Notes: generated from the letters alone by a model not told the origin. A DNA stretch of 64,000 nt from an uncultured Gammaproteobacteria bacterium (GCA_964459725.1 CAYWNT010000004.1:57045-121044), one strand, 5' to 3'; counted from the stretch's first letter, positions 29,311 through 52,205 are shown. Numbers and translations are program-made.

Positions 29311-29460
29311 AAGTCCCCTCTAGGGAGGGGTAGGCAGGCAAAGTCTGGCGGGGTGGGTAAACGAACGCGGAGTAATGAAAATAATGGTTAAAACCCACCC
29401 CAAAATTATTTGTTTCATGCCCTGTGGGCGCAAAATAAGTATTCCCCTTCGAAGAGGGGG
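29311..29460 (+). other. GC-rich structured leader upstream of the hydrogenase genes
   Basis: AAGTC-CCCCTC-TAGG-GAGGGG-TAGGCAGGCAAAGTC element (29311-29345). 9-bp stem GGGGTGGGT/ACCCACCCC (29350-29401). 7-bp hairpin CCCCTTC GAA GAGGGGG (29444-29460) followed by CTTTATT. Confidence 0.5.
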
Positions 29461-29480
29461 CTTTATTCATAAGAAAAAAT

Positions 29481-29939
29481 ATGAGCAAGAAAAAAGTTGG
29501 AATATTTACATTTACTTGTGATGAAGGATGTTCTATTTATTTAATAGAAATATTTAACAAGAAGCTCCTGGGCTGGCTTGAGAAAATGGACTTGGAGTAT
29601 TTTTTATCAATGAAGGACAAGAGGGATTCAGATAGGTTTGATATCGCCCTTGTAGAGGGAGCGATTACAACGGAGAGGGACCTAGAAGAGATAAAAAAGG
29701 TAAGAGAGAGGTCAAAGATTCTGATCGGAATGGGGAATTGCGCTATTACAGGAAGTCCGACTTGTCAGAGAAATTTTTTTAACCAAGACCAGCTCGATGA
29801 AATAAAAAAAGACCTGGAGAAATTTAAATTTTTACCGAAATGCATAAGCATCAAAGAGGCAGTTGGCCTCGATGATGAAATAGTAGGCTGCCCGATAGAC
29901 GAAAAGAAATTCATCGAAGTATTTGAAAAATATCTTTAA
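29481..29939 (+). CDS. [NiFe]-hydrogenase small subunit, short group-3 type (proximal cluster only)
   Basis: 152 aa. VGIFTFTCDEGCS, DIALVEGAI, GMGNCAITGS and VGCP Cys motifs, as in HoxY/sulfhydrogenase-delta-like subunits. Confidence 0.75.
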   Translation: MSKKKVGIFTFTCDEGCSIYLIEIFNKKLLGWLEKMDLEYFLSMKDKRDSDRFDIALVEGAITTERDLEEIKKVRERSKILIGMGNCAITGSPTCQRNFFNQDQLDEIKKDLEKFKFLPKCISIKEAVGLDDEIVGCPIDEKKFIEVFEKYL

Positions 29940-30007
29940 AGAGTCAAAGTATATAAATAAATGTCACTTTAGACTTTATGGACTTTATAGACATTTGACT
30001 AAATTTT

Positions 30008-31351
30008 ATGCACACTTGTGATTTAGACATTTCAATAAATAGATTATCAAAGATTGAGGGACATGCTGACCTGGATGTGAAGATTCGAGATGGCAAAGTA
30101 GAGGATGTTCAGCTGAGAGTTATGGAGAATCAGCGTTTTTATACTCAGGCCGTAAAAGGCAAGCCAGCCCTGTCTGTGCCGCAGTTGGTTTCTAGAATTT
30201 GTGGAACTTGCTCTGTAGCGCATATGACAGGATGCATTGAGGCAGTAGAGAAGACTCTTGATATTACGCCAAGTGAACAAACCATGATAATGCGCAAGCT
30301 CATGATGTACTCTCTGATGATCAGGGATCATGCCCTGCATCTCTATTTCTTTGTGATGCCGGACATATTTGGAGTTGATTCAGCCCTGGAAATCGCTGAT
30401 TTATCTGAGGAGGAATTACGCGAGAAGGGAGCACCAGCTGGGCTAACTGGTAAAGACATAGTTCATGAAGCTTTGCACGTCAAAGAGGCAGGTAATAATC
30501 TATCAAATCTGATAGCCGGCCGATCAGTGCACGCTCCTTTTGAGGCTGTGGGCGGATTCACCAGGGAAGTAGATAATTCTAAGATTCCGGAAACAGTAGA
30601 AGAACTGAAAAAGATAAAACAATCAATCATAAACTTAGCAGAAGTTTTTTATAATTGTCATTGGGAACTAAAGAGAAAAACTAATTTTGTGGCACTTACC
30701 ACTCCAGACTTTTCATTTCTGGAAGGAGTGATCTGCTCTAGCACCGGAGCCTGCATCAAGGAGGAGAACTATTGGGATCATCTCCATAGTATAGTGCTTC
30801 CATATTCTCAGGCCAAGGGTTTTGAATTTGAGGGCCAGGAGTATATGGTTGGCTCTCTAGCTAGGTTAAATCTAAACAAAGATCATTTGCATAAAGATAC
30901 TAAGGAGTCAATGGCCAAATATTTGGAGATATTTCCTTCAGATAATATTTATCATAATAATTTAGCTCAAGCCATAGAGATAATGCACTCTATTGATCAT
31001 TCGGTTGAACTTTTGGAGAATTCAAAATTTAAAAAAGAAGAAATCGTAAAACCGCATAAACAATCAGGGGAGGGAGTCGGAGTTATTGAGGCGCCGCGAG
31101 GGACACTCTACTATTGGCTTGGTATAGAGGATGGAAAGGTGAGGTATGCTAACCTGGTTATCCCAACTGCTCAAAATTTGGTAAATATGAGAGAGGATGT
31201 TAGAGAGGCGGTAAAACTGGTATGTAATGATGGGGTAAAAGCGGAAGAGAAATGGGAGAAGAAAATTAAAAATGAGGTAGAGAAAATTATTAGAGCATAT
31301 GACCCATGTATGTCATGTGCTTCACATTTTTTAAAAGTTAATTGGACATAA
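30008..31351 (+). CDS. [NiFe]-hydrogenase large subunit (group 3-like)
   Basis: 447 aa. N-terminal RICGTCSVAH and C-terminal DPCMSCASH Ni-Fe ligand motifs, with a 7-residue tail after the His for protease cleavage. Confidence 0.9.
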   Translation: MHTCDLDISINRLSKIEGHADLDVKIRDGKVEDVQLRVMENQRFYTQAVKGKPALSVPQLVSRICGTCSVAHMTGCIEAVEKTLDITPSEQTMIMRKLMMYSLMIRDHALHLYFFVMPDIFGVDSALEIADLSEEELREKGAPAGLTGKDIVHEALHVKEAGNNLSNLIAGRSVHAPFEAVGGFTREVDNSKIPETVEELKKIKQSIINLAEVFYNCHWELKRKTNFVALTTPDFSFLEGVICSSTGACIKEENYWDHLHSIVLPYSQAKGFEFEGQEYMVGSLARLNLNKDHLHKDTKESMAKYLEIFPSDNIYHNNLAQAIEIMHSIDHSVELLENSKFKKEEIVKPHKQSGEGVGVIEAPRGTLYYWLGIEDGKVRYANLVIPTAQNLVNMREDVREAVKLVCNDGVKAEEKWEKKIKNEVEKIIRAYDPCMSCASHFLKVNWT

Positions 31352-31379
31352 ACAAAAAAGTAAAAAAAGGAGGTGAATC

Positions 31380-31574
31380 ATGGGATCCGAAAAGAAAAAA
31401 AGATTGTCGCCGCAGCTCGTATTTTTTGTTTCATTAATTATTTTTGTTGTTGGGCTTTGTTTTTCTGACACAGAAGTAGTTAAAGAAAGTATGATTTTGT
31501 CAGTTACCCCTTTTATTTTTGCATTAATCGCTGCACGGAGTTTGCCCAATGTCATTAACAAAGACAGATTTTAA
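31380..31574 (+). CDS. small two-TM protein downstream of the hydrogenase
   Basis: AAGGAGGTGAA SD 5 nt before the ATG; 64 aa with two hydrophobic helices. Confidence 0.5.
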   Translation: MGSEKKKRLSPQLVFFVSLIIFVVGLCFSDTEVVKESMILSVTPFIFALIAARSLPNVINKDRF

Positions 31575-31611
31575 AAAACAAGCATGGGGAAAAACAGGTT
31601 AGTTAATAAAA

Positions 31612-31998
31612 TTAGCCTGTTTTTTCTTTTTTGATTAAGGTAACTAGATCGTTTAAGGCCTGTTTTTTTTCTATTTTCATGGGAACACAAAAAATGACCA
31701 CCTCCTTGAGCTGCCCGATTTTTTCCAAGAGACGTAAGTTGAATCCCAGATCAAAATCATGCATAGAGTATTTTGGGTCTACTTGGATTTTGCTGATGTC
31801 AGTAAGAACTCGCACTTCTTCAATTCCTTCAGCTGTATCGATTATGATTAGCTTACCATTCTTGGGATGGAGGTTCTCATTCGGGTCCCTAACGCAGAAT
31901 TCAGTTTCCGGGAATTCTTTTTTCAGCTCGCTCTTTAGAAGAATAGGAGTATTATCAAAATCCAGCAATGGATTTCCAAATATGTATATTTTATTCAT
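31612..31998 (-). CDS. hydrogenase maturation endopeptidase (HycI/HoxW family)
   Basis: 128 aa; IFGNPLLDFDNTP, IIIDTAEG and SMHDF motifs in the order of the Asp/Asp/His metal site. Confidence 0.65.
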   Translation of the reverse strand: MNKIYIFGNPLLDFDNTPILLKSELKKEFPETEFCVRDPNENLHPKNGKLIIIDTAEGIEEVRVLTDISKIQVDPKYSMHDFDLGFNLRLLEKIGQLKEVVIFCVPMKIEKKQALNDLVTLIKKEKTG

Positions 31999-32036
31999 GA
32001 TAGTAAAAGGGGTGCTGCTTATTTAGCAGCACCCGG

Positions 32037-32294
32037 TTAGGCGGCGATTGGCTGAAATTTAACTCCAGGTAGATTCGCTTCTTTGTTTAAGGCAAGGATT
32101 ATTTTTTTTAATTCATCCTTGTCAGCAATTAGCTCGTTTACAATTTGAGCTCCTGCTTTTTCAAGATTTTTTTTCATTTGTACAAAACCTTCAGGGGTAT
32201 CGGAAAAGTCGATGTAGCACATATGGCCATATTCTTCTTTTACGATTATGGTTTTGTAATTTTTTCCAGGCTCAAGCTTCATTAACCCACACAC
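32037..32294 (-). CDS. hypothetical small protein
   Basis: AAGGAGG SD 6 nt before a GTG start; 85 aa; no family recognised. Confidence 0.45.
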   Translation of the reverse strand: MCGLMKLEPGKNYKTIIVKEEYGHMCYIDFSDTPEGFVQMKKNLEKAGAQIVNELIADKDELKKIILALNKEANLPGVKFQPIAA

Positions 32295-32421
32295 GATACA
32301 CCTCCTTTGTAAAATTATTGTTCGTTAATTATATTTTACTATACCTTCATTTTTTAGGCAAACTTATTCTTTCTTTTTTTTAAAAAATAATATAAAATCA
32401 TATTATATATTATTTGAAACT

Positions 32422-33960
32422 ATGATAAAAAACAATGGAGCTGTTGCAGCTGGCCATGAGCTAACTGCGGCGGCTGCAAAAAATATTTTAGATCTGGGAG
32501 GTAATGCTTTTGATGCTGTCATAGCTGCCGGGCTAGCTTCGGCAGTTACTGAGTTCAATCTGACTTCTCTTGGAGGAGGAGGATTTCTGTTGGCTCACAC
32601 CAGGGATAACAAAAATACTCTTTTTGATTTTTTTTCACAAACCCCGAAGAGTAAAAAAATAGATAAAGAAAACCCTGATTTTTACCCAATCATGGTGGAT
32701 TTTGGAGATACTACCCAGGAGTTTCATGTTGGTATGGCCTCCATGGCTGTTCCGGGGTGCACAGCCGGGTATTTTCGTATTCATAAGAAACTAGGCAAGC
32801 TCCCAATGTCTGTAGTGGCTGAGCCGGCCATAGAATATGCCCGTCAGGGAGTGGAGCTAAACAGATTTCAGCATTATTGTCTTACCCTTCTTGATCCAAT
32901 CATGAATAAGACAGAAGAAGGAAGAAAAATGTTCATGAATGATGAGAGTATTATTCAGCCTGGGAGCACTGTGTATATGAGAAATTTTGCAGACTCCCTA
33001 GAGTACTTGGTCAAGGAAGGAGATAGGGCGTTTTACGAGGGAGACTTTGCTGAAAGACTTGTGAGAGATTCAGAGGAGAAAGGCGGCTATCTTACTATGG
33101 AGGATATGCGTGATTTTGAGGTGATAGAGAGGGTGCCACTCGATATTGATTATCACGGAAATGAATTTATAACCAATCCACTACCTAGCTCCGGAGGTAT
33201 ATTGATCACTTTTGCTCTCGAGCTTTTGGAAAAAATTAATCTAGGCCAGTACAAGCATGGCAGTTTGGAGCATCTAAACATATTATCAGATGTTATGGCG
33301 CTTACCAACGAAGGAAGAAGTGAGAGTAATGGAGCGGTTGAGCATTTTCTGGATGAGGCAAATATAAATAAATATAGAGAGAAGCTGAATACGAGAATTA
33401 ATAAATGGGGAAGTACTACTCATGTAAGCGTCGTAGACAAGGAGGGAAACGCGGCCAGTATGACGACGTCCAATGGGGAGGGTTCTGGTTATTTTATTCC
33501 TGACACAGGCATTATGATAAATAATATGCTAGGCGAGGAGGATTTAAACCCAGAGGGCTTCCACCTTTGGCAGGAAGATGTGCGTATTTCATCCATGATG
33601 TCTCCGACTATAGTTTTGAAAGATAAAAAACCGGAAATCGTGTTAGGTTCGGGTGGATCGAACAGGATCAGAACTGCGATCCTCCAGGTAATTTCTAATG
33701 TTATAGATTTTAAAAAGCATATTTCAGAAGCAGTAGATGTTCCGAGGATACATTGGGAGAGAAATAAGTTTAATATTGAGCCCGGATTTAATGCTGGGGT
33801 GGTAGAGAAGGTGAAAAATATTAAAACTCAAGATGAGTTTGTGGAATTTTCTGAGAAAAATATGTTTTTTGGTGGAGTGCATGCTGTCACTCGTGATGAG
33901 AATGGCAATTTCGAAGGGGCAGGAGATAAGCGGAGAAGTGGTGTGTCTTTGGTTTGGTAG
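32422..33960 (+). CDS. ggt: gamma-glutamyltransferase family protein
   Basis: 512 aa; GGGGF, catalytic-Thr region GSTTHVSVVDKEGNAASMTTSNG, and SSMSPT and GSGGS motifs. Confidence 0.85.
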   Translation: MIKNNGAVAAGHELTAAAAKNILDLGGNAFDAVIAAGLASAVTEFNLTSLGGGGFLLAHTRDNKNTLFDFFSQTPKSKKIDKENPDFYPIMVDFGDTTQEFHVGMASMAVPGCTAGYFRIHKKLGKLPMSVVAEPAIEYARQGVELNRFQHYCLTLLDPIMNKTEEGRKMFMNDESIIQPGSTVYMRNFADSLEYLVKEGDRAFYEGDFAERLVRDSEEKGGYLTMEDMRDFEVIERVPLDIDYHGNEFITNPLPSSGGILITFALELLEKINLGQYKHGSLEHLNILSDVMALTNEGRSESNGAVEHFLDEANINKYREKLNTRINKWGSTTHVSVVDKEGNAASMTTSNGEGSGYFIPDTGIMINNMLGEEDLNPEGFHLWQEDVRISSMMSPTIVLKDKKPEIVLGSGGSNRIRTAILQVISNVIDFKKHISEAVDVPRIHWERNKFNIEPGFNAGVVEKVKNIKTQDEFVEFSEKNMFFGGVHAVTRDENGNFEGAGDKRRSGVSLVW

Positions 33961-34187: not shown

Positions 34188-34220
34188 AATAGTACTATTA
34201 ATAGTACTTTTAATAGTACT
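34188..34220. repeat. three direct 12-nt repeats AATAGTACT(ATT/TTT)
   Basis: Copies start at 34188, 34200 and 34212. Each contains the AGTACT palindrome. They lie just downstream of the trmD stop in a 263-nt convergent intergenic region. Confidence 0.7.
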
Positions 34221-34223
34221 ATT

Positions 34224-34955
34224 TTACTGGATGGTTTTTTTGTTTTTCTCTCTCCACTCTTCTATTTTTTTATGATTACCGGTGAGGAGTACTTCAGGGA
34301 CCTCTAGTTTTTTTCCATCTGCTTCAAACACTTTCGGTTTGGTGTATTGAGGGTATTCCAGGACTCCTGGTTCGCTGTGTGACTCATCTTTGGCGCTTTC
34401 AGTGTTACCAAGAACCCCTGGTAGGAGACGAGTGACAGAATCGACAATGGTCATAGCTCCAATTTCGCCTCCGGTCAGTACGAAGTCACCGATAGAGATT
34501 TCCTCATCAATGAACTCTGTTATTCTCTCGTCTACACCTTCGTATCGGCCACAGATCAAAACTACATTTTTTAGCTTGGAATATTCCAGTGCTTTTTGTT
34601 GGTTCCATCTTTTGCCCTTGGCAGACAGAAGGACAATCCTTGTGTTTTTATTTAGCCTAAATATTTTATTAACAAGACTAGAGAGGGGGGCAAAGATTTT
34701 CTTGATTGGGGCGCTATCTGACAATTGAGATTTTATGCTTTTTATCGCTAGATAGAGGGGCTCTATCTTCATCACCATTCCAGCGCCACCTCCATAGGGA
34801 GTGTCATCTATGGTTTTGTGCTTATCCTCTGTCCAGTCGCGAAGATTGTGAACCCCAATGTCTACTAATTTTTTGTCCCGGGCTCTCCTGATAATTGATT
34901 CACTAAAATATGAATCAAAAATTTTTGGAAAAATTGTAATAATATCAAATTTCAT
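34224..34955 (-). CDS. trmD: tRNA (guanine37-N1)-methyltransferase
   Basis: 243 aa; DDTPYGGGAGMVM, LICGRYEGVDERI and SIGDFVLTGGE motifs. Confidence 0.9.
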   Translation of the reverse strand: MKFDIITIFPKIFDSYFSESIIRRARDKKLVDIGVHNLRDWTEDKHKTIDDTPYGGGAGMVMKIEPLYLAIKSIKSQLSDSAPIKKIFAPLSSLVNKIFRLNKNTRIVLLSAKGKRWNQQKALEYSKLKNVVLICGRYEGVDERITEFIDEEISIGDFVLTGGEIGAMTIVDSVTRLLPGVLGNTESAKDESHSEPGVLEYPQYTKPKVFEADGKKLEVPEVLLTGNHKKIEEWREKNKKTIQ

Positions 34956-35022
34956 ATTTTTTTAAACAAAAAACCACGAACTGGAAAGTTGTGGTTTTTT
35001 GTATTTGTATTTGAAAGTTTGT

Positions 35023-41506: not shown

Positions 41507-43195
41507 ATGAACAAGCAAGAAACAAAAAAAGCTATTTTGGAAATTTTGAAAAGTAGGATAAGGAATCGGAAAGATTTGATGATGGCCAAGAGGAGAATGG
41601 CGGTTAAATATTCTATTCCTATTTTTTCCAATGCTGAAATATTTAAGGAGTATCGAGAGCTCGTGAAAACGGGAAAAGTTAAAAGATCTCCGGTATTAGA
41701 TCAGGTGTTAAGGAAGCGAGCTGTTCGCACCTTGTCAGGCATTGCTCCTGTGGCAGTTCTTACTAGGCATTTTCCATGTCCTGGGAAATGTGCTTTTTGT
41801 CCTACGGAAAAAGATGTGCCTCAGAGCTACCTGTCTAATGAGCCGGCAGTGATGAGAGCTATTCGGTGTAACTATGATCCCTTCATTCAAGTTCAGGATA
41901 GACTTCGAGCCTTGGTAGCAAACGGGCATGAACCTACCAAGATGGAGGTAATCGTTATCGGAGGTACTTGGTCGGCCCATCCTCGAAAATATAAATATTG
42001 GTATATATTAAATTGCTTTGCGGCTGCAAATCAGTTTAGTCGAAAGTCTATAAAGTCACCCGCCTATCGGACGGGCAGGAAAGTCACCCGCCTATCGGAC
42101 GGGCAGGAAAGTCGAGGGTATAGCATAAATTTAAAGATTGATGAGTTGAAGAAGTTATTATTAGAGGAGCAGAAGAAAAATGAAAAAGCAAAGTACAATA
42201 TCATTGGACTTACTCTGGAAACTCGACCGGATTATATTAATGAAAAAGAATTGATTCAAATGAGAGAGTTGGGCTGCACTAGAGTTGAGATTGGGGTGCA
42301 GGCGATTGATGATAAAATTTTGAAGCTGAATAAGCGCGGACATGGAGTAGAAAAAATCGCAGATAGCACAGAGATGCTAAGAAGTTTTGGATTTAAGATT
42401 ACTTATCATATTATGCCTGGCCTGCCTGGGGCTACTCCAGCGTTAGACGCAAAGATGTTTAAGCAATTATTTTGCGATCCTAGATTTCAGCCAGATCAGA
42501 TAAAATTTTATCCCACAGTAGTTACTAAGGGCAGCTTGATGTACAGGTGGTGGAAGCAGGGAAAGTATAAACCGTATACAGACAAGCAATTGCAAAAGCT
42601 AATTATAGATTGTAAGACAGTTGTACCTTCATACGTGAGAATAATTCGTCTAATCAGAGATATCCCAGGTGAGTCCATTGAGGCTGGCAACAAGATTACA
42701 AATCTCCGACAGGTTATGCAGGATAGGGGGGTGAAATGTAATTGTATTAGATGCAGAGAGTCACGTGAGTCACAGGTTGCAAATCATAAATTGCAGATTA
42801 TTAATTATAAGGTGACTGGCGGAGAAGAGTTTTTTATAAGTTTTGAAAATAAGAAAAAGAATATTTTGTACGCTTTTTGTAGATTATTCGTTCCAGATAG
42901 CAAAACTCAAGCACTTCACCAGCTAACAAGTGGAGGTTCTATTGTTCGTGAACTTCATGTTTATGGTGAGTTAGTATCGATTGGTACTTCGACAGGCTCA
43001 GCACAAGCGAAAAAAGAAAAAAAAGTTCAACATATTGGATTAGGTAAACTTTTAATAAAAAAAGCTGAAGAAATATCACTTGATCATGGATTAGGGAAAA
43101 TAAGTATAATTTCCGGAGTTGGAGTGAGGGGGTATTATAGAAAATTAGGATATAGACTAAATAATACCTATATGGTTAAAAATATAAAGGAATAG
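41507..43195 (+). CDS. Elp3-like radical-SAM / GNAT acetyltransferase fusion (tRNA U34 modification family)
   Basis: 562 aa. Radical-SAM cluster CPGKCAFCP. ELP3-type TLETRPDYI, GCTRVEIGVQ and IMPGLPG motifs. C-terminal GNAT (QHIGLGKLLIKKAEEIS). Confidence 0.85.
   Translation: MNKQETKKAILEILKSRIRNRKDLMMAKRRMAVKYSIPIFSNAEIFKEYRELVKTGKVKRSPVLDQVLRKRAVRTLSGIAPVAVLTRHFPCPGKCAFCPTEKDVPQSYLSNEPAVMRAIRCNYDPFIQVQDRLRALVANGHEPTKMEVIVIGGTWSAHPRKYKYWYILNCFAAANQFSRKSIKSPAYRTGRKVTRLSDGQESRGYSINLKIDELKKLLLEEQKKNEKAKYNIIGLTLETRPDYINEKELIQMRELGCTRVEIGVQAIDDKILKLNKRGHGVEKIADSTEMLRSFGFKITYHIMPGLPGATPALDAKMFKQLFCDPRFQPDQIKFYPTVVTKGSLMYRWWKQGKYKPYTDKQLQKLIIDCKTVVPSYVRIIRLIRDIPGESIEAGNKITNLRQVMQDRGVKCNCIRCRESRESQVANHKLQIINYKVTGGEEFFISFENKKKNILYAFCRLFVPDSKTQALHQLTSGGSIVRELHVYGELVSIGTSTGSAQAKKEKKVQHIGLGKLLIKKAEEISLDHGLGKISIISGVGVRGYYRKLGYRLNNTYMVKNIKE
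42038..42115 (+). repeat. AAAGTC-word / hairpin element with 28-nt tandem duplication, inside the Elp3-like CDS
   Basis: GTCGAAAGTC-TATAAAGTC, then two exact 28-nt units AAGTCACCCGCCTATCGGACGGGCAGGA (42053-42080 and 42081-42108), then AAGTC. Translated KSPAYRTGR / KVTRLSDGQE in different frames. Confidence 0.85.
42986..43008 (+). repeat. in-frame GC-rich element copy (Elp3-like, between the SAM and GNAT parts)
   Basis: ACTTCGACAGGCTCAGCACAAGC, translated TSTGSAQA. Confidence 0.6.
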
Positions 43196-46312: not shown

Positions 46313-49018
46313 ATGTATATAGAAAAATTAGAAATTCAAGGATTCAAGTCTTTTGCAGATAAGAATGTTCTATCTTTCCCGGGATCATTAAGTGATGCTG
46401 AGCAGGGGCTGACAGCTATAGTTGGACCGAATGGATCAGGTAAATCAAATGTAGCCGATGCGATTAGATGGGTGTTGGGAGAACAGAGTCTCAAGACTAT
46501 TAGGGGGAAAAAGGCGGATGATGTAATATTTTCTGGAACAGAAAAGAGAAAGAAACTGGGCATGGCTGAGGTGGCTTTGTATTTGAATAATGCTGATAAG
46601 CAAGCACCGATTGATTACACCGAACTGGTGATCAAGAGAAGGGTTTATCGAGATGGTAATAGTGAATATTTAATAAATAATAGTAGAGTCAGACTCATAG
46701 ATGTTCAAATGCTTTTGGCCAAGGCTAATGTAGGACAAAAAACATACAGTGTGGTCGGGCAAGGTACAGTAGATAATTTCTTGAACAGCTCATTGGCTGA
46801 CAGGAAAGAGTTTTTTGATGAAGCAACTGGAGTAAAGCAGTATCAGATCAAGAGAGACTCGTCTCTTAACAAGCTTCGTTTGAGCTATGAGAATCTATCT
46901 CAGGCGCAAATGCTTCTCTCGGAAATTGAACCTAGACTAAATAGTCTTACTAGGCAGGTAAAGAAGCTTAGAAAGAGAGGAGAGCTGGAAAAAGAACTAA
47001 AGGAACATCAATTAAAATATTATTATTCTATTTGGCATGAGAATAATAATAAATTTAGAGATTATAATAATAAATTTTTGGTACTTGAAAAGGAAAAACA
47101 TGAAAAGGATAAGAAACTTAGTTTTTTCAATAAAGAGTTGGAGAAGTATGAGGTAAGCAAGGACCAAGAAAGTGAATACGATGTTTTGGAAAGAGATCTT
47201 AGAAAATATCAAGATGAAAAAGAAAACCAAGAAAGACAATTAGCCAGGATCGATGCTCATATCGAGGTGCAGTTGGAGTCAGTAGGTAAATTTGACTTGT
47301 CATTTTTTATTTTAAAAAAGGAAGAACTAACCAAAGACATTAAAAAAATCGATGATGAGCTAGCCAGACTAAAGGAAAGCATCAAGGATGATAAAGAAGA
47401 GGAGATAGATCTGAAAAATAAGAACGAAAAATTAGTTAACGACTTAGAGAAACTAAATAATAAATTATTTGAAACTAAGAAGGAGACAAGTGATAGTGTA
47501 GAACCTGAAATGGAAAAAAAGATAAGAGAGGTAATTGAGAAAATAAAATTGGCTGAAGGAGAAGAGGAGATGCAAAAAATAAAAGAGATAATATCAGCAA
47601 TAAAAACTGAATTAGAAAAATTATTTTTAGAAGAAAAAGAAGAAATACAAGAGAGTGAGAATTGGCAGGGAGTTCACGAGGAAATTAAAAAGCTATCAAA
47701 AGAAAAAGAAGAAATTTCAGGTAGGATAAATGATAATATTTTGCGAATCTCTGCTCGCTCAGAGAGAATAAATCTTTTAGATGAAAAAAATGTTTCTTTA
47801 AGAAAGGAACTGGAAGATATTGAATCAAAAATAAAACAAAATTCAGATGTGATAGACGTAGAAGAGATAACTTCTAAACGAGATAACATGAAAGGAAAAA
47901 TTGCTGAGACTGATGAGATTGTGGCTGACCTGAAGAACAAAATGAGTAGACTAAACAAAGAGGAGGAAAAAAAGAGATCTCATCTTCTAGGACTACAAAA
48001 AAATATTCAGGAACTTCAGATGGAGATTAATAATTTAGTAAATGAGCTAAATGATCTGAAGGTACATGCAGCCAGACATGAAACAAGGCTAGAGGATATT
48101 GAGGTGGAAATTAGAGATGAGCTGGGAGGAATGAGTGATATTAAGGGAGGAGAGCTGGATGTTTCAGGAGTTGATCTGGGAGAAGTCAAAGAAAGCATAG
48201 TAAAAATAAAAAGACAATTAGAGCTCATTGGTGGAATTGATCCAGAGGTTGAGAAAGAATATGGCGAAACTAAAGAGCGTTTTGATTATCTTTCTGGGCA
48301 GGTTACTGATCTGACATCAGCCATTGATTCTTTGGAGAACATTATAAAAGAACTAGATATTACTATTAGAAAAAAGTTTGACAAAGAGTTCAAGGTGATT
48401 GCAGGCAAATTTCAAGAATATTTTAAAATATTATTTGGTGGCGGAACAGCTAAAATTGAAAAGGTTGTAGAGGAGGAAGATCCTTCGACAGGCTCCCTCC
48501 AAGAAGGCGGGCAGGCAGGACAAGGAGAGGAAGAAATGAAGGAAAGTCAGTCAGGGGAAGGTGAAGAAAATTTAAAAGACCCTAAAAAGAAAAACGAAAC
48601 TCATAACATAGTAGATGTAAAAAAGATCAAATTTTTACAAAAGCACAACGCTACCGGTTTAGCAGGAGTTGAGATTTATGCCTGCCCCCCTGGTAAAAAG
48701 ATCACCTCAATAAATGTTTTGTCTGGAGGAGAAAAGGCTCTAACTGCTATAGCCTTGATTTGCGCAATTATCAGAGCTAATCCTGCTCCTTTTGTTGTTT
48801 TGGATGAGGTTGATGCAGCCCTTGATGAAGCAAACTCAGAAAGGTTGGCAAAAATCCTAGAGGATTTATCTCACAGAACTCAATTTATTGTTATAACTCA
48901 TAATAGAGCCTCAATGAAAAAGGCAAGCGTATTATACGGCGTAACCATGGGAGATGATGGAGTCTCAAAACTTTTAAGCGTCAAAATGGGAGAAGCTGTA
49001 GATAAGGCAAGATACTAA
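46313..49018 (+). CDS. smc: SMC-family chromosome segregation ATPase, short form without recognisable hinge
   Basis: 901 aa. N-head FKSF..GPNGSGKSNVADAIRWVLGEQS, QGTVDNF, EATGVKQYQIKR. C-head LSGGEKALTAIAL and VLDEVDAALDEAN. The roughly 520 residues between the heads are continuous E/K-rich coiled coil. Confidence 0.85.
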   Translation: MYIEKLEIQGFKSFADKNVLSFPGSLSDAEQGLTAIVGPNGSGKSNVADAIRWVLGEQSLKTIRGKKADDVIFSGTEKRKKLGMAEVALYLNNADKQAPIDYTELVIKRRVYRDGNSEYLINNSRVRLIDVQMLLAKANVGQKTYSVVGQGTVDNFLNSSLADRKEFFDEATGVKQYQIKRDSSLNKLRLSYENLSQAQMLLSEIEPRLNSLTRQVKKLRKRGELEKELKEHQLKYYYSIWHENNNKFRDYNNKFLVLEKEKHEKDKKLSFFNKELEKYEVSKDQESEYDVLERDLRKYQDEKENQERQLARIDAHIEVQLESVGKFDLSFFILKKEELTKDIKKIDDELARLKESIKDDKEEEIDLKNKNEKLVNDLEKLNNKLFETKKETSDSVEPEMEKKIREVIEKIKLAEGEEEMQKIKEIISAIKTELEKLFLEEKEEIQESENWQGVHEEIKKLSKEKEEISGRINDNILRISARSERINLLDEKNVSLRKELEDIESKIKQNSDVIDVEEITSKRDNMKGKIAETDEIVADLKNKMSRLNKEEEKKRSHLLGLQKNIQELQMEINNLVNELNDLKVHAARHETRLEDIEVEIRDELGGMSDIKGGELDVSGVDLGEVKESIVKIKRQLELIGGIDPEVEKEYGETKERFDYLSGQVTDLTSAIDSLENIIKELDITIRKKFDKEFKVIAGKFQEYFKILFGGGTAKIEKVVEEEDPSTGSLQEGGQAGQGEEEMKESQSGEGEENLKDPKKKNETHNIVDVKKIKFLQKHNATGLAGVEIYACPPGKKITSINVLSGGEKALTAIALICAIIRANPAPFVVLDEVDAALDEANSERLAKILEDLSHRTQFIVITHNRASMKKASVLYGVTMGDDGVSKLLSVKMGEAVDKARY
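48482..48525 (+). repeat. in-frame GC-rich element, long form (SMC C-terminal head insert)
   Basis: CCTTCGACAGGCTCCCTCCAAGAAGGCGGGCAGGCAGGACAAGG, translated PSTGSLQEGGQAGQG. Confidence 0.75.
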
Positions 49019-49021
49019 AGT

Positions 49022-49072
49022 AAGTCGAAAGTCGTCTGCCTACCCGGCAGACAGAAGGTCTATAAAGTCAAA
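49022..49072 (+). repeat. intergenic AAAGTC-word / hairpin element
   Basis: AAGTCGAAAGTC, then hairpin GTCTGCC TACCC GGCAGAC (49034-49052), then AGAAGGTC-TATAAAGTC. Confidence 0.8.
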
Positions 49073-49125
49073 GGTGGGTTAAGTTTTGTTAAAAAAATCA
49101 TCTAATTTTAATTTTTTAAATATTT

Positions 49126-52100
49126 ATGCAATCAATAGAGGATTTAATAAGTGAATCGGCTGGTGGTGATGTAGACGAGGAAAGTAGCCAGGGAAAATTG
49201 GTTAAGAGACAAGCATCCATCAAGGCTAATGAAATAGAAAGGCATACTGAGAGCCAGGCCCAGGCGGCTGGTGTTTCGTATATTAATCTGCATGGATTTC
49301 CTATTAGCCAAGAAGCTCTAGCTTTAATAAAAGAGGAAGAAGCACGCAAACTTAGCTATGTTTGTTTTTTTTACGATGGAGAACATTTAAAGATTGCAAC
49401 TACCGAACTTAGAAATTCTGCGATGCTAGATAGTGTTAATAAGCTGAATGAAAAATTACACACCAAGATATCTATTTATTTGGTTTCCGAGCAGAGCTTG
49501 GGTTATGCATTAAAGCTCTATGCATCCCTGCCTAAATTTAAAAAGATAATTAGAGGAGTGGAAATTGCTGAAGAAGACATAGCAAAGTTTAAAAATAGCA
49601 TAAAAGATTATAAGAGCTTAAATGAAAAGATAAATGAAGTTAATACTACGGATGTGGTTACTTTGATTCTGGCTACTGCCATGAAAACAAATGCTAGTGA
49701 TGTTCACATCGAGGCAGAGGAAGGCGGTATAGTTATTCGACTTCGAATTGACGGAGTTTTGCAGGAAGCTGCTGTGGTTGAAAAAGAAAAATGGAAAAAG
49801 ATTATTTCCAGAATGAAACTTCTCGCCAAGGTAAAAATAAATATTCAAGACAAGCCTCAAGATGGTCGATTTACTATATTTCTAGATAACAACAAGATTG
49901 ATGTCAGAACTTCTTTTTTGCCAACATCTTTTGGCGAGAGTGTGGTGATGAGGTTATTGAGGTCAGACTCGGTAGCACTTGGATTTGATAAGTTGGGAAT
50001 TGCTCAAGGATCGTTTGAAATCCTAGAAAAGGAAATCAAGAAACCAAACGGATTGATACTAACTACAGGACCGACTGGAAGTGGAAAAACAACCACCCTT
50101 TATTCTGTTATAAATAAACTAAATACTGAGGATACCAAGATTATTACCTTGGAAGATCCTATTGAGTATCAGCTCGAGGGTGTAAATCAGAGCCAAATCG
50201 ATGAGAGAAAAGGATATACATTTGCTAAGGGCCTCAGGTCCATTCTAAGGCAAGATCCTGACATAGTCATGGTTGGAGAAATTCGCGATCTGGAAACTGC
50301 TGAAATATCAGTACAAGCTAGTCTCACTGGACATTTGGTGCTTTCTACTCTGCATACAAATGATGCAGCTGGGGTTGTTCCTCGCTTGGTGGACATGGGA
50401 GTAAAGCCTTATTTTCTCACTCCTTCTATAAATGCCATTATTGGTCAGAGATTGGTTAGAAAATTATGCGAGAAGTGTCGTCTGCCTCATGAAGTCACCA
50501 GTGAGGAGGAAGAAACTGTCAGAAAAATATTGGCAGTAATTTCACCAAAGGCAGAAATCGAGATTCCGAGTGATTTAGGAGGATTATATAAAAAAGGTGA
50601 AGGATGTGAGCATTGTAGTGGCATTGGTTATAAAGGGCGAATTGGTATATACGAGATTTTTACCATGAGTGATAATATAAAGGCCTTAACATCAGAAGGA
50701 GCGCCAGCTTTTAAAATACTTGAGCTAGCAATCCAAAACGGAATGATAACCATGCTTCAAGATGGTGTCTTGAAATGCTTGAAGGGTATTACAACGCTAG
50801 AAGAGATATATAGAGTAATTGGAAAGTTTGACTATGTAGACACTCTCTATGATATTGTAATGTCCAAGACAATTGGAAGAGGAATTAAAGTGGGACAGGA
50901 AGAAATAGATAAAGCAAAACAATTAATTAGCGATCTAACAAAAGCAGAGGAAGCTATAAGTAGTACGTCTTCGAAAAAAATGACGGAAATTATTATGGCC
51001 TTGGCTGTTGAGACAAGCACGGGCGATATCCATATCGAGCCAACAGAGGGCGGCGTGAAAGTGAGATTTAGAATTGATGGGATACTGCACGATATAGCTG
51101 ATCTTTCCAAGGATAGTTATATTCAAATTTTATCAAAAATTAAAACAGTAGCAGGTTTTGCCACGAATGTAAAAAAAGCAGTTATGGATGGTAGATTCAG
51201 CATTTTTATTGGAGAGAGAAAAGTGGATTGTCGGTTATCTGTAATTTCTGGTGGGTATGGAGAGACAATTGTGATTAGGATATTATCCAGTGAGGCTTCT
51301 GATTTGAAAATGGAGGAACTGGGAATTAAGTCACAAGCACTAAGCAAGATCCAGAAGGCCCTTTCAAAAACTAAGGGAATTATTATAACCACAGGACCGA
51401 CCGGAAGTGGAAAAACCACCACTCTCTATAGTGCCTTGAATCAGCTCAACAATGAAGACACCAAAATTATCACCATAGAAGATCCGATCGAATATCACTT
51501 GGATGGTATTATGCAAACTCAGATTGATAAAGAAGCAGGGTATACATTTGCTTCAGCAATCAGATCGTTGATGCGTCAGAATCCAAACATAATTATGGTT
51601 GGAGAAATTCGAGATAATGAGACAGCCAAGGTAGCAATTGAAGCAGCTATGACAGGACACCTGGTTCTGTCTACGGTTCATTCCAATAGCGCTGCCGGAG
51701 CAATTTCCAGGCTAGCTGGACTAGGAGTTGAGAGACAGGCCTTAGCAAGCTCGATAGAGTGTGCTATTGGTCAGCGCTTGGTAAGGAAGATTTGTCCGCA
51801 TTGCATAAAAGAAAAAAATATTGAAGATAATCTCTTATCTGAAATTAAAGAAATATTATCGCAGATTAATCCTGCAGCCGCGATTTCTGTTCCTGATGAT
51901 TTGAAATTTTATGAAGGAGCAGGATGTGATAAGTGTAATGGTCTTGGATTTAAGGGTAGATTAGGAATATATGAGGCTATTACCATGACTTCTGATATGC
52001 AGAAGTTAATTCAGAAGCAAGATATAACCAATTTTGACATAGAGCAAAGCGCAATGGAAGCAGGAACAATATTAATGATCCAAGATGGAATCTTGAAAGC

Positions 52101-52149
52101 TCTAGAGGGGCTCACAACCGTAGAGGAGGTATTGAGAGTAGCGAGATAG
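49126..52149 (+). CDS. tandem-fused double GspE/PilB-type secretion ATPase
   Basis: 1007 aa. T2SSE_N-like N-terminus followed by two complete ATPase modules. Each module has Walker A GPTGSGKTTTLYS, Walker B (D/N)P(D/N)I(V/I)MVGEIRD, His box TGHLVLST(L/V)H(T/S)N and a tetracysteine CxxC..CxxC cluster. Confidence 0.88.
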   Translation: MQSIEDLISESAGGDVDEESSQGKLVKRQASIKANEIERHTESQAQAAGVSYINLHGFPISQEALALIKEEEARKLSYVCFFYDGEHLKIATTELRNSAMLDSVNKLNEKLHTKISIYLVSEQSLGYALKLYASLPKFKKIIRGVEIAEEDIAKFKNSIKDYKSLNEKINEVNTTDVVTLILATAMKTNASDVHIEAEEGGIVIRLRIDGVLQEAAVVEKEKWKKIISRMKLLAKVKINIQDKPQDGRFTIFLDNNKIDVRTSFLPTSFGESVVMRLLRSDSVALGFDKLGIAQGSFEILEKEIKKPNGLILTTGPTGSGKTTTLYSVINKLNTEDTKIITLEDPIEYQLEGVNQSQIDERKGYTFAKGLRSILRQDPDIVMVGEIRDLETAEISVQASLTGHLVLSTLHTNDAAGVVPRLVDMGVKPYFLTPSINAIIGQRLVRKLCEKCRLPHEVTSEEEETVRKILAVISPKAEIEIPSDLGGLYKKGEGCEHCSGIGYKGRIGIYEIFTMSDNIKALTSEGAPAFKILELAIQNGMITMLQDGVLKCLKGITTLEEIYRVIGKFDYVDTLYDIVMSKTIGRGIKVGQEEIDKAKQLISDLTKAEEAISSTSSKKMTEIIMALAVETSTGDIHIEPTEGGVKVRFRIDGILHDIADLSKDSYIQILSKIKTVAGFATNVKKAVMDGRFSIFIGERKVDCRLSVISGGYGETIVIRILSSEASDLKMEELGIKSQALSKIQKALSKTKGIIITTGPTGSGKTTTLYSALNQLNNEDTKIITIEDPIEYHLDGIMQTQIDKEAGYTFASAIRSLMRQNPNIIMVGEIRDNETAKVAIEAAMTGHLVLSTVHSNSAAGAISRLAGLGVERQALASSIECAIGQRLVRKICPHCIKEKNIEDNLLSEIKEILSQINPAAAISVPDDLKFYEGAGCDKCNGLGFKGRLGIYEAITMTSDMQKLIQKQDITNFDIEQSAMEAGTILMIQDGILKALEGLTTVEEVLRVAR

Positions 52150-52155
52150 TTGTAG

Positions 52156-52205
52156 GGTCGAAAGTCATAAAGCCTATAAAGTCTCAGCCTATGGCTGGAA
52201 AAGTT
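52156..52205 (+). repeat. intergenic AAAGTC-word / hairpin element
   Basis: GGTCGAAAGTC-ATAAAGCC-TATAAAGTC, then hairpin (T)CAGCC TAT GGCTG(G) (52184-52198), then AAAAGT. Confidence 0.8.

What the first reader, a model, noticed from the sequence alone, without database searches (positions are those of the whole stretch)
29311..52205. Dispersed AAAGTC-word / GC-hairpin repeat family with compensatory stem changes
At least four loci combine the words GTCGAAAGTC and TATAAAGTC with a short GC hairpin whose loop starts with TA:
- 42038-42115: CCCGCC TATC GGaCGGG, twice;
- 49022-49072: GTCTGCC TACCC GGCAGAC;
- 52156-52205: CAGCC TAT GGCTG;
- 29311-29345: CCCCTC TAGG GAGGGG.

The stems have different sequences but remain complementary, while the flanks are conserved. 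This is the signature of a structure-selected REP/MITE-like element. The 3' flank (C/T)AGGCAGG(A)CAA(A)G links this family to the in-frame SGQ element. Related GACTTTA words occur between the two hydrogenase genes (29963-29999) and form the arms of the palindromes at 3209 and 3269. Three copies sit exactly at gene ends (after smc, after the pilB-like gene, before the hydrogenase), so they may act as terminators, RNA-stability elements or protein-binding sites.
Basis: seen in the sequence. Interest (0 to 1): 0.6.

Follow-up and report, generated by a model that had tools for sequence, protein, structure and literature searches.

The report
Word-array hairpin repeats shared across phyla
The four short stretches of repeated AAAGTC "words" plus a small GC hairpin are real, and they are small copies of an apparently undescribed repeat family found in many ultra-small (CPR) and Bacteroidota bacteria, where it sits at gene ends, inside ribosomal RNA genes and in-frame inside proteins, and in its full form flanks a small four-helix-bundle gene.

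Summary
All four loci read as described. GTCGAAAGTC occurs 3 times (0.06 expected) and TATAAAGTC 6 times (0.9 expected), while the bare 6-mer AAAGTC is not enriched.

The window is a Patescibacteria (CPR) genome. It adds about 24-26 residues to a disordered loop, and only two copies of its 28-nt unit keep the frame open.

The words are not private to this genome. A capped scan of 185,579 species genomes for GTCGAAAGTC..TATAAAGTC gave more than 118 loci, 88 of them labelled CPR or Bacteroidota. There the words form tandem arrays, usually paired with an inverted GACTTT array to make foldback hairpins. These foldbacks enclose short loops, GC hairpins or a four-helix-bundle gene (PF05635, "23S rRNA IVS protein"). 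They also occur as insertions at 16S rRNA helix tips and in-frame in housekeeping genes.

The GC hairpin is a separable module, YCNGCC-loop-GGCNGR, with real pair covariation.

The best reading is miniature, ORF-less relatives of an IVS-like foldback repeat family, mostly passenger DNA. Neither mobility nor any RNA function is shown. The hairpins are not classical terminators because they lack a U-tract. I found no published description.

The parts
42038..42115 (+). Locus A. Words AGTCGAAAGTC and TATAAAGTC, followed by two perfect copies of the 28-nt unit ACCCGCC-TATC-GGaCGGG-CAGG-AAAGTC. It lies in-frame inside Elp3 (ORF 41507-43195) at residues 178-203, SRKSIKSPAYRTGRKVTRLSDGQESR.
   Evidence: Solved Elp3 structures lack this segment. 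CPR orthologues vary at this linker. The AlphaFold2 model has pLDDT below 50 and coil over residues 181-202. Only 2 copies of the unit keep the ORF open; 0, 1, 3 or 4 copies give early stops.
49022..49069 (+). Locus B. GTCGAAAGTC, then hairpin GTCTGCC-TACCC-GGCAGAC, then AGAAGGTC and TATAAAGTC. It starts 5 nt after the smc stop codon (49018) and ends 57 nt before the PilB-like start (49126).
   Evidence: No T-run follows and it is not called terminator-like. Fold z-score is -1.7. The covariance model scores it 18.2 bits, but it is a seed sequence.
52156..52231 (+). Locus C. GTCGAAAGTC, ATAAAGCC, TATAAAGTC, then hairpin TCAGCC-TAT-GGCTGG (the outer pair is T-G), then AAAAGTT and a further degenerate word ..GTAAAGTT. 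It starts 7 nt after the stop of the PilB-like gene (52149), upstream of the translin-family gene (52279).
29311..29345 (+). Locus D. AAGTC, CCCCTC-TAGG-GAGGGG, TAGGCAGGC, AAAGTC. It is the 5' part of a 155-nt multi-stem region, 29311-29465, in the leader of the hydrogenase small-subunit gene.
   Evidence: The fold of 29300-29485 is -72.6 kcal/mol with z = -7.7, and its outer stem is AAGUCCCCUCU / AGAGGGGGCUU. No Rfam match. No copy in any locus held.
29937..29999 (-). Locus E. A degenerate complete foldback between the hydrogenase small- and large-subunit genes: AGTCAAAGT..AAATGTC, then ACTTTAGACTTTATGGACTTTATAGACATTTGACT. Read on the minus strand it is GTCAAATGTC TATAAAGTC CATAAAGTC TAAAGTGAC.
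3209..3231 (.). Minimal foldback with one word per arm: AAGTC-TAAGCTAGCTTG-GACTT.
3269..3293 (.). Minimal perfect foldback AAAGTCCACGAT|ATCGTGGACTTT, near tRNA-Cys (3385-3457).
48480..48530 (+). Linked "SGQ" GC element, in-frame in smc: ..CTCCCTCC-AAGAA-GGCGGG-CAGGCAGGACAAGG. Its 3' flank resembles those of loci D and A.
25860..25905 (+). Second SGQ copy, in-frame near the C-terminus of NusA (ORF 24452-25984): CTCCCTCC-AGGAC-GGCGGG-CAGGCAGGACAAGG.

Best explanation
The loci are miniature, ORF-less members or remnants of a cross-phylum family of foldback repeats.

**What the family looks like (shown).**
- The arms are tandem arrays of short AAAGTC words: NNTAAAGTC 9-mers and GAAAGTC or AAAAGTC 7-mers.
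- In its full form, an AAAGTC array and an inverted GACTTT array flank a gene of about 115 residues. [quoted passage not shown]
- ORF-less versions form hairpins in intergenic DNA, at the tips of rRNA helices, and in-frame in protein loops.
- A second, separable module is a small REP-like GC hairpin, YCNGCC-loop-GGCNGR. It is often nested between words.

**What the window holds.**
- A is translated as a disordered loop insertion in Elp3. It is tolerated rather than functional.
- B and C sit in 3' untranslated regions just after stop codons.
- D and E flank the hydrogenase small-subunit gene.
- The sites at 3209 and 3269 are minimal foldbacks.

**What is inferred, not shown.**
- The elements spread or persist as selfish or neutral DNA. 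They grow by duplication between flanking AAAGTC direct repeats, as in the 28-nt unit of A.
- Copies survive only where they do no harm: gene boundaries, permissive loops and helix tips.
- As RNA, long foldbacks would be RNase III substrates like classical IVSs. Short GC hairpins may at most protect 3' ends.
For: **Non-random words.** 3 against 0.06 and 6 against 0.9 expected.

**Cross-genome distribution.**
There are 127 matches, 62 of them the exact 19-mer GTCGAAAGTCTATAAAGTC.
- My own estimate for that 19-mer in 596 Gb at uniform composition is about 4.
- 90 of 118 loci carry further words next to the match.
- By record title, 51 loci are CPR and 37 Bacteroidota.

**Foldback anatomy.**
- 37 of 56 adjacent pairs in the order AAAGTC array then GACTTT array lie 3-90 nt apart.
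- Pairs in the opposite order are never closer than 97 nt.

**Link to the IVP gene.**
- Pairs 293-538 nt apart enclose PF05635 / TIGR02436 genes.
- 4 of 4 IVP loci chosen only by protein homology have an AAAGTC array upstream and a GACTTT array downstream.
- More distant IVP genes are flanked by inverted arrays of other words.

**rRNA insertions.** In L006, two foldbacks are 134-nt and 107-nt insertions at 16S rRNA helix tips.

**In-frame copies elsewhere.** Same-strand, in-frame copies occur in PheT-like, Mur ligase, PrmC, TrmD and methyltransferase genes of other CPR genomes.

**Elp3.** Other CPR orthologues carry AAAGTC-flanked GC hairpins at the same linker. The frame constraint and the disordered loop are shown.

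**GC hairpin nested in words.**
- Double GC hairpins between same-orientation words recur in L006, L012, L067 and L088, as in locus A.
- In L067 this arrangement lies directly upstream of an IVP gene.
- Near words, 40% of GCC..GGC cores extend by all three outer pairs, against 5% elsewhere.
Against: - No direct sign of mobility. I found no empty-site or presence/absence polymorphism, no clear target-site duplication, and no transposase.
- Assemblies of the same populations are identical at the arrays.
- The window has no IVP gene. No transposase or reverse transcriptase turned up among the ORFs scanned (precomputed Pfam).
- A, B and C are same-orientation arrays, not foldbacks.
- The GC hairpins also occur without words beside tRNA and rRNA genes in other CPR genomes, so they may be functional RNA hairpins in their own right.
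- Word arrays at the Elp3 linker in many lineages could be old and evolving in place, rather than repeated insertions.
- The covariance model finds no extra copies in the window.
- The rest of the source genome could not be scanned.
Confidence: 0.6

Rival explanations
1. The copies are functional RNA elements at gene ends. The GC hairpin, with its flanking words, would act as a U-tract-independent terminator, a 3'-end stabiliser or a processing signal, and the stems would be kept by selection on RNA structure.
For: - B and C start 5 and 7 nt after stop codons, on the same strand as the genes.
- In other genomes, arrays start within -1 to +30 nt of the upstream stop in most same-strand cases.
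- Stem pairs covary and include U-G pairs.
- The same GC double hairpins lie beside tRNA genes and in rRNA operon spacers of other CPR genomes.
- REPs sit in similar positions (PMC3733652).
Against: - No U-tract follows, and the terminator scan does not call them. Canonical hairpin-plus-T-run sites do exist in this window at 28672 and 38726.
- Fold energies are not better than shuffles (z -0.4 to -1.7).
- The same modules sit in-frame inside Elp3 here and inside TrmD, Mur ligase and PrmC elsewhere. A terminator there would be harmful.
- In compact genomes almost any intergenic element lies near a stop codon.
Confidence: 0.2
2. The word arrays are DNA or RNA binding sites, iteron-like, for a sequence-specific protein. 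Candidates are the four-helix-bundle IVP protein itself or a nucleoid or regulatory protein. The window copies would be such binding sites near operon boundaries.
For: - The words are 7-9 nt and tandem, with a conserved AAAGTC core and variable prefixes.
- Different IVP lineages are flanked by different word "dialects", as if protein and site co-vary.
- PF05635 is related to Avd, a nucleic-acid-binding accessory protein of diversity-generating retroelements (PMC10053308).
Against: - No IVP gene lies in the window.
- Arrays occur inside coding regions and inside rRNA.
- No binding data exist.
- Window arrays have only 2-3 words each.
Confidence: 0.12
3. The pattern is a chance clustering of common k-mers of an AT-rich genome beside unrelated hairpins.
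For: - The hexamer AAAGTC is not enriched.
- Lysine-rich linkers of AT-rich genomes are full of AAA-containing words.
- Fold energies are ordinary.
Against: - The 10-mer and 9-mer words far exceed expectation.
- The identical 19-mer recurs in dozens of genomes, embedded in arrays.
- Array orientation shows strong structure.
- Hairpins are enriched next to words.
Confidence: 0.02

Closest known systems
REP / tagged palindromic repeats (GTAG- and CGTC-tagged REP superfamilies; Di Nocera et al. 2013, PMC3733652)
   Same: - Small GC-rich imperfect palindromes with a conserved unpaired motif at one end.
- Stems that differ between subsets.
- Location mostly within 20 bp downstream of ORFs.
- Dimers and clusters.
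- Some copies lie in-frame inside genes and encode 20-30 extra residues.
- The CGTC tag has variants such as TGTC, close to the ..AGTC that ends the words here.
   Different: - The tag is AAAGTC and is itself repeated as a tandem word array.
- Stems are 5-7 bp rather than 8-9 bp with A/T first pairs, and there is no CCA tail.
- Copy number in the window is low (3-4 hairpin modules in 64 kb).
- No RAYT gene was seen.
- The family partner is a four-helix-bundle gene, not a tyrosine transposase.
rRNA intervening sequences (IVS) with an S23p / IVP ORF: the Coxiella burnetii 23S helix-45 IVS (PMC4990558), and uncharacterised short ORF-less insertions and IVP ORFs in CPR rRNA genes (PMC11270868)
   Same: - Relatives of the window copies are hairpin insertions at 16S helix tips (L006).
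- The full-length form carries the same protein family, PF05635.
- Inverted arms can form a long stem of the kind RNase III excises from IVS-bearing rRNA.
   Different: - The window copies are in intergenic DNA and in a protein-coding gene, not in rRNA.
- Most lack a second arm.
- I found no published IVS description of arms built from tandem words, or of dispersal into mRNA regions and ORFs.
- Excision was not tested.
Rickettsia palindromic elements (RPE), selfish palindromic DNA inserted in-frame in protein-coding genes (Ogata et al. 2000, from my own knowledge; RPE-4 and RPE-6 are classed as CGTC REPs in PMC3733652)
   Same: - Palindromic repeats tolerated in-frame in housekeeping genes of a reduced, AT-rich genome.
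- The same family also lies in intergenic DNA.
- Inserted peptides sit in permissive surface regions.
   Different: - RPE-1 elements are about 100-150 bp and restricted to one genus.
- Here the units are 7-28 nt words and hairpins, and they are shared across phyla.
MITEs and foldback transposons whose long terminal inverted repeats are made of short tandem subrepeats (eukaryotic Foldback elements; from my own knowledge)
   Same: - Inverted arms composed of tandem short units.
- ORF-less miniature forms outnumber ORF-bearing forms.
   Different: - No transposase.
- No demonstrable target-site duplication.
- The cargo is a 115-residue four-helix-bundle protein of unknown activity.
GC clusters of yeast mitochondrial DNA (from my own knowledge)
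   Same: Short GC-rich palindromes scattered in an AT-rich genome, including in-frame copies in a protein gene (var1).
   Different: Unrelated sequence, an organellar setting, and no word arrays.

Membership tests
REP (GTAG/CGTC-tagged repetitive extragenic palindromes) | Short (20-40 bp) imperfect GC-rich palindrome | tested here: met
   Hairpins have 5-7 bp stems and 3-5 nt loops. That makes them 13-19 nt, at the short end of the range. The consensus is YCNGCC-loop-GGCNGR.
REP (GTAG/CGTC-tagged repetitive extragenic palindromes) | Conserved unpaired GTAG or CGTC motif at one end | tested here: not met
   The flanking motif is AAAGTC (..AGTC), which is neither GTAG nor CGTC. The published variants TGTC and CCTC (PMC3733652) are only similar.
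REP (GTAG/CGTC-tagged repetitive extragenic palindromes) | Tens to hundreds of copies per genome | not testable with these tools
   Only 64 kb of the source genome is held. It was not among the loci returned by the genome or metagenome scans. The window has 3-4 hairpin modules.
REP (GTAG/CGTC-tagged repetitive extragenic palindromes) | Mostly just downstream of ORFs | tested here: met
   B and C start 5 and 7 nt after stop codons. A is intragenic, which is also known for REPs.
REP (GTAG/CGTC-tagged repetitive extragenic palindromes) | Associated RAYT (Y1 / HUH transposase) gene | tested here: inconclusive
   No transposase family appeared among the window ORFs scanned or in the precomputed Pfam lists. 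Not every ORF was scanned, and the rest of the genome is unseen.
MITE | Terminal inverted repeats | tested here: inconclusive
   Met for E (29937-29999), 3209-3231 and 3269-3293. Not met for A, B and C, whose words all point the same way.
MITE | Target-site duplication | tested here: inconclusive
   Each hairpin unit is bracketed by AAAGTC-like direct repeats. These are also the array word, so a duplication cannot be told apart. No empty site was found.
MITE | Related autonomous element encoding a transposase | tested here: not met
   ORF-bearing relatives encode PF05635 / TIGR02436 four-helix-bundle proteins, not a known transposase.
IVS-like IVP cassette (rRNA intervening-sequence type) | Inverted arms able to form a long stem | tested here: inconclusive
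   Met in relatives. In the window it is met for E and for the 155-nt D region. Not met for A-C.
IVS-like IVP cassette (rRNA intervening-sequence type) | Carries a PF05635 (S23p / IVP) ORF | tested here: not met
   No IVP homologue in any frame of the window. It is present in 18 of 118 related loci and flanked by the same words.
IVS-like IVP cassette (rRNA intervening-sequence type) | Inserted at rRNA helix tips and excised by RNase III | not testable with these tools
   Insertion at 16S helix tips is seen for relatives in L006. The window has no rRNA gene. Excision needs RNA data.
Intrinsic (Rho-independent) terminator | GC-rich hairpin followed directly by a U-tract | tested here: not met
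   Hairpins are present, but no T-run follows A-D, and the terminator scan does not list them. True hairpin-plus-T-run sites exist at 28672 and 38726.
DNA uptake sequences (DUS/USS) | One 9-12 nt word strongly over-represented genome-wide, about 1 per kb | tested here: not met
   There are only 3-6 copies of the 9- and 10-mers in 64 kb, and AAAGTC is not enriched.
CRISPR array | Identical repeats of 25-40 nt separated by unique spacers of similar length | tested here: not met
   Units are directly adjacent, with no spacers. The words are 7-9 nt.

The most novel reading that the evidence does not exclude
The AAAGTC arrays are one "dialect" of a general, undescribed architecture. Four-helix-bundle (Avd-like, PF05635) genes across bacteria would sit in small cassettes whose inverted arms are tandem arrays of lineage-specific short words. 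These cassettes and their ORF-less miniatures would be the source of rRNA intervening sequences. They would also colonise intergenic DNA and permissive protein loops, and pass between phyla as distant as Patescibacteria and Bacteroidota. The four-helix-bundle protein would be the factor that recognises the word arrays, for mobility or for RNA processing.
Probability: 0.4. Interest if true: 0.8.

Novelty: new variant of a known kind. Interest (0 to 1): 0.65.

Why it matters
How bacterial rRNA intervening sequences arise and spread, and what their conserved S23p/IVP protein does, has been open since the 1990s. CPR genomes are also known for unexplained insertions in rRNA and proteins.

This finding ties three things into one sequence family with a recognisable signature:
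- short dispersed repeats in a CPR genome;
- ORF-less hairpin insertions in 16S rRNA;
- the flanks of IVP genes.

That signature can be searched, counted and tested. Some carriers are cultivable Bacteroidota, such as Flavobacterium and Butyricimonas isolates.

It also has practical uses:
- It explains odd low-complexity peptides (SRKSIKS, KSKVYKV, SAKGGSASGG) in CPR proteins.
- One independent assembly of this population ends inside the tandem repeat, so such repeats may also break assemblies.
- It warns annotators that such segments are repeat-derived.

Tried and rejected
- **Archaeal promoter or intron.** I first considered an archaeal BRE/TATA promoter or a bulge-helix-bulge intron, because Elp3 and translin suggested an archaeon. 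The organism is a CPR bacterium, and no sigma-70-like promoter is called at the loci.
- **Ribozyme or riboswitch.** Rfam gave only tRNA-Cys in the window. It gave nothing at 29200-30050 even at E up to 1, and nothing on the arrays themselves in six array-rich loci.
- **Exact look-up of the window's Elp3 gene.** It failed twice.
- **Metagenome scan with the SGQ 20-mer.** The returned loci do not include the source contig. 11 of 14 hits look like chance matches, mostly in GC-rich genomes. L127 and L131, and possibly L124, look related.
- **Viral scan for the 19-mer.** No hits.
- **Strain polymorphism.** Three other assemblies of the same population are 100% identical to the window. Related IVP loci from up to eight samples are identical at the arrays. 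Mobility therefore could not be tested.
- **Plain MAFFT alignment of the original copies.** It did not respect the stems. A trimmed set aligned well, but 10 of its 12 rows had been picked by a pattern that required pairing. The unbiased test is.
- **Covariance model R1.** In the window it found only its seeds B and C, and A weakly at E = 1.6. Elsewhere it found further GC double hairpins that lack words.
- **Literature.** Searches for CPR palindromic or MITE elements, for IVP flanks and for the word strings found no description.

Full report
**1. Observation**

- Locus A is AGTCGAAAGTC-TATAAAGTC followed by two perfect copies of a 28-nt unit, ACCCGCC-TATC-GGaCGGG-CAGG-AAAGTC. Tandem Repeats Finder reports period 28, 2.2 copies, 100% match.
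- B is GTCGAAAGTC, then the hairpin GTCTGCC-TACCC-GGCAGAC, then AGAAGGTC-TATAAAGTC.
- C is GTCGAAAGTC-ATAAAGCC-TATAAAGTC, then the hairpin TCAGCC-TAT-GGCTGG, then AAAAGTT.
- D is AAGTC, then CCCCTC-TAGG-GAGGGG, then TAGGCAGGC-AAAGTC.

The longer words are far from chance.
- GTCGAAAGTC occurs exactly three times, all on the + strand, against 0.06 expected.
- TATAAAGTC occurs six times against 0.9 expected.
- The hexamer AAAGTC alone is not enriched, 48 against 48. The signal lies in the longer words and their clustering.

**2. Organism and setting**

The best protein hits are to Patescibacteria / Parcubacteria. The window's Elp3 has no relative above 66% identity among 5.8 billion proteins, apart from itself.

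GC content is about 26-40%.

Flanking genes:
- SMC, a double-domain PilB-like ATPase, a translin-family protein, and the small and large subunits of a [NiFe]-hydrogenase.
- NusA, trigger factor, TrmD, S16 and TyrRS/TrpRS.

No transposase, reverse transcriptase or PF05635 gene was found in the window (precomputed Pfam).

**3. Locus A is inside a gene**

ORF 41507-43195 is Elp3, with E = 1e-115 to solved Elp3 structures.

The element occupies codons 178-203 (SRKSIKSPAYRTGRKVTRLSDGQESR). This is a linker that the solved structures lack and that varies in length among CPR orthologues.

In an AlphaFold2 model, residues 181-202 are low-confidence coil between two helices.

Removing or adding copies of the 28-nt unit shows that only two copies keep the reading frame. 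With 0, 1, 3 or 4 copies a stop appears within a few dozen codons. I infer that the insertion is translated and merely tolerated.

**4. The words are a cross-phylum vocabulary**

I scanned one genome for each of 185,579 species with GTCGAAAGTC-N(0-30)-TATAAAGTC.
- Of 127 matches, 62 are the exact 19-mer GTCGAAAGTCTATAAAGTC. My own estimate for 596 Gb at uniform composition is about 4 chance matches.
- 90 of 118 loci carry further AAAGTC or GACTTT words beside the match.
- By record title, 51 loci are CPR lineages of many candidate phyla. 37 are Bacteroidota, including cultured Flavobacterium, Butyricimonas, Mucilaginibacter and Perlabentimonas. 13 are MAGs labelled uncultured Gammaproteobacteria or Bdellovibrionales, and 5 are labelled only "bacterium". 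The remaining 12 are mostly obvious chance hits in coding DNA.
- The 19-mer is absent from 2.9 million viral contigs.

**5. Anatomy of the family**

- *Words.* They are mostly 9-mers (TAT-, CAT-, TGT-, CGT- or CTT-AAAGTC) and 7-mers (GAAAGTC, AAAAGTC).
- *Foldbacks.* An AAAGTC array is typically followed closely by an inverted GACTTT array. 37 of 56 adjacent pairs in this order lie 3-90 nt apart. Pairs in the opposite order are never closer than 97 nt. These are foldback hairpins. Their centre is a short loop or a GC-rich hairpin.
- *IVP gene.* For pairs 293-538 nt apart, the centre is an ORF of about 110-116 residues. It matches TIGR02436 "four helix bundle protein" and PF05635 "23S rRNA-intervening sequence protein".
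- *Independent check on the IVP link.* I picked four IVP genes purely by protein homology on long contigs. All four have an AAAGTC array just upstream and a GACTTT array just downstream.
- *Other dialects.* More distant IVP genes in the loci are flanked by inverted arrays of other words: AGGTA / TACCT, TTAGCT / AGCTAA, AAGGGT / ACCCTT, AAGAGTC / GACTCTT and CGTGAAA / TTTCACG.
- *Not in rRNA.* None of 14 IVP loci lies in an rRNA gene.
- *rRNA insertions.* In L006 (Magasanikiibacteriota), two ORF-less AAAGTC foldbacks are 134-nt and 107-nt insertions at the tips of two 16S rRNA helices. One is the tip of the long penultimate helix, which I take to be helix 44. Two more foldbacks lie in the leader and in the 16S-tRNA spacer. 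Short uncharacterised ORF-less insertions and IVP ORFs in CPR rRNA genes have been reported without this description (PMC11270868).
- *In-frame copies.* Same-strand, in-frame arrays occur in PheT-like, Mur ligase, PrmC, TrmD and methyltransferase genes of other CPR genomes. They give peptides such as SRKSIKSIKSIKSKVYKV.
- *Gene ends.* When the upstream gene is on the same strand, the match usually starts within -1 to +30 nt of its stop codon.

**6. The GC hairpin module**

With copies from other genomes added, the window hairpins align to YCNGCC-loop(3-5)-GGCNGR. On that alignment, two of the six pairs vary:
- UA 6, CG 3, UG 2;
- CG 6, UA 4, AU 1.

However, 10 of the 12 rows had been chosen by a pattern that required those pairs.

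The unbiased test starts from every GCC-loop-GGC core.
- Near a word, 65% extend the pairing at each of the next two positions, and 40% extend at all three.
- Elsewhere the figures are about 30% and 5% (20 cores against 708).

Hairpins are also enriched beside words, 10 of 32 against 3.7 expected.

Double GC hairpins between same-orientation words recur in L006, L012, L067 and L088, as in locus A. In L067 the arrangement lies directly upstream of an IVP gene.

CPR Elp3 orthologues carry AAAGTC-flanked GC hairpins at the same linker. In L002/L003 the sequence is AGTCAAAAGTC..CCCGCC..GGCGGG..AAGTCAAAAGTC. In L001 it is ATAAAGTC-CCCCCTTTGTAAAGGGGG.

A covariance model built from these copies finds no additional copy in the window: only seeds B and C, and A at E = 1.6. 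In other CPR genomes it finds the same GC double hairpins without words, beside tRNA genes and in rRNA operon spacers. The hairpin is therefore a separable module.

**7. What the window copies are not**

- *Not intrinsic terminators.* No T-run follows them and the scan does not list them. Classical hairpin-plus-T-run sites exist at 28672 and 38726.
- *No exceptional structure.* Their fold energies are ordinary, z -0.4 to -1.7.
- *D is the exception.* The region 29311-29465 folds to -72.6 kcal/mol, z = -7.7. Its outer stem is AAGUCCCCUCU / AGAGGGGGCUU, and it encloses three inner hairpins. It has no Rfam match and no copy in any held locus. D's small local hairpin is probably not its real structure.
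- *E is a degenerate complete foldback*.
- *The sites at 3209 and 3269 are one-word foldbacks*.

**8. Explanation**

The best-supported reading (confidence about 0.6) is as follows. The window loci are miniature, ORF-less relatives of an IVS-like foldback repeat family whose arms are AAAGTC word arrays. A REP-like GC hairpin module is nested in them.

They persist where they do no harm: right after stop codons (B, C), around the hydrogenase small-subunit gene (D, E), near a tRNA gene (3209, 3269), and in a disordered Elp3 loop (A).

Shown:
- the family, its anatomy, its link to the IVP gene and its rRNA insertions;
- the in-frame status and frame constraint of A.

Inferred:
- selfish spread, growth by duplication between AAAGTC direct repeats, and RNase III processing of long foldbacks. 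Processing is inferred by analogy with the Coxiella IVS, a selfish element with an S23p ORF that RNase III excises (PMC4990558).

Against this reading:
- I found no presence/absence polymorphism. Assemblies of the same populations are identical.
- There is no clear target-site duplication and no transposase.

Rivals:
- a functional 3'-end RNA hairpin (0.2);
- protein-binding iterons (0.12);
- chance (0.02).

**9. Comparison and novelty**

The closest known kinds are:
- tagged REPs. These share location within 20 bp of ORF ends, intragenic in-frame copies and a CGTC/TGTC tag (PMC3733652);
- Rickettsia RPEs;
- rRNA intervening sequences;
- foldback-type MITEs.

The family fails the defining REP tag test and lacks a RAYT gene or any transposase, so I do not file it as a member of those families.

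Searches of 8 million papers found no description. I searched for CPR palindromic or MITE elements, for IVP flanks and for the word strings themselves. The library misses most subscription journals, so prior description cannot be excluded.

I rate it a new variant of a known kind, with interest 0.65.

**10. Limits**

- Only 64 kb of the source genome could be read.
- Gene contexts in external loci rest on simple ORF calls.
- No expression data exist.

Noticed in passing
window 29311-29465: A 155-nt GC-rich multi-stem region in the leader of the [NiFe]-hydrogenase small-subunit gene. It folds to -72.6 kcal/mol (z = -7.7 against shuffles) and has no Rfam match. It could be a hydrogenase leader RNA or a nest of repeat hairpins.
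   Followed up: partly
window 25860-25905 and 48480-48530: Two in-frame copies of a GC-rich "SGQ" element, CTCCCTCC..GGCGGGCAGGCAGGACAAGG. One is in NusA and one in SMC. Related strings (..ttcgacaagctcaggacaag..) occur in metagenome loci L127 and L131.
   Followed up: partly
window 34188-34223: Three tandem copies of a self-complementary 12-mer (AATAGTACTATT; the middle copy differs at one base) directly after the stop codon of trmD (34224-34955, minus strand). This may be another word-array dialect or an operator.
   Followed up: no
Elp3 linker in 120 CPR orthologues (P0001-P0120; window residues 178-218): The same linker varies from 19 to 58 residues. In different lineages it carries translated word arrays of several kinds (KSKVESRK, NYELRIKNYELRI, FQFSNNFQLSNFQF, KIPNLKSQIPN), GC-hairpin peptides (TPATGQA, SPADAG..) and VILE..SRSRMT-type strings. 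It is a hot spot for repeat-derived sequence.
   Followed up: partly
L002 8186-8213 and 8267-8294 (same in L003): Another CPR Elp3 gene carries two in-frame copies of the perfect 22-bp palindrome GAGACGCGATTAATCGCGTCTC (peptide ETRLIAS). This is a different palindromic insertion family.
   Followed up: no
L006 1864-3705: The 16S rRNA gene of a Magasanikiibacteriota MAG carries two AAAGTC/GACTTT foldbacks as 134-nt and 107-nt insertions at helix tips. Further foldbacks lie in the leader and in the 16S-tRNA spacer.
   Followed up: yes
L103, L108, L049, L010, L072, L063 (138-491): More distant four-helix-bundle (PF05635) genes are flanked by inverted tandem arrays of other short words (AGGTA, TTAGCT, AAGGGT, CAGTG, AAGAGTC, CGTGAAA). 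This suggests a general cassette architecture with lineage-specific word dialects.
   Followed up: partly
L017, L047, L056, L082, L097, L107, L119 (Bacteroidota loci): AAAGTC arrays abut or enclose arrays of unrelated words (cagtcagcagtgag, ccgattaccgatcac, cttcaatccttcaatc, caatcgacaatcg, gatttgcgatttgc). The result is nested, onion-like palindromes.
   Followed up: no
window 49126-52149: The PilB-like ORF has 1007 residues and two T2SSE ATPase matches (177-563 and about 728 onward). It is a tandem-duplicated or fused secretion ATPase.
   Followed up: no
window 15514-23439 and 56500-64000: A 2641-residue ORF on the minus strand carries internal repeats. At the 3' end of the window, a long repetitive coding region runs off the end. 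It has repeats of about 1.25 kb and 3.7 kb at 60-84% identity.
   Followed up: no
L153 (Logan assembly SRR8062320), ending at window 42084: An independent assembly of the same population ends exactly inside the second copy of the 28-nt tandem unit in Elp3. This is most likely a de Bruijn graph break caused by the repeat. Many IVP homologues also sit on contigs shorter than 2 kb.
   Followed up: partly
L136, L137, L140, L143: All four IVP genes sampled without reference to the words lie inside sugar-nucleotide epimerase / ABC-2 transporter / glycosyltransferase clusters. In L143, on the listed gene coordinates, the neighbouring gene calls run into the arrays at their end and start.
   Followed up: no
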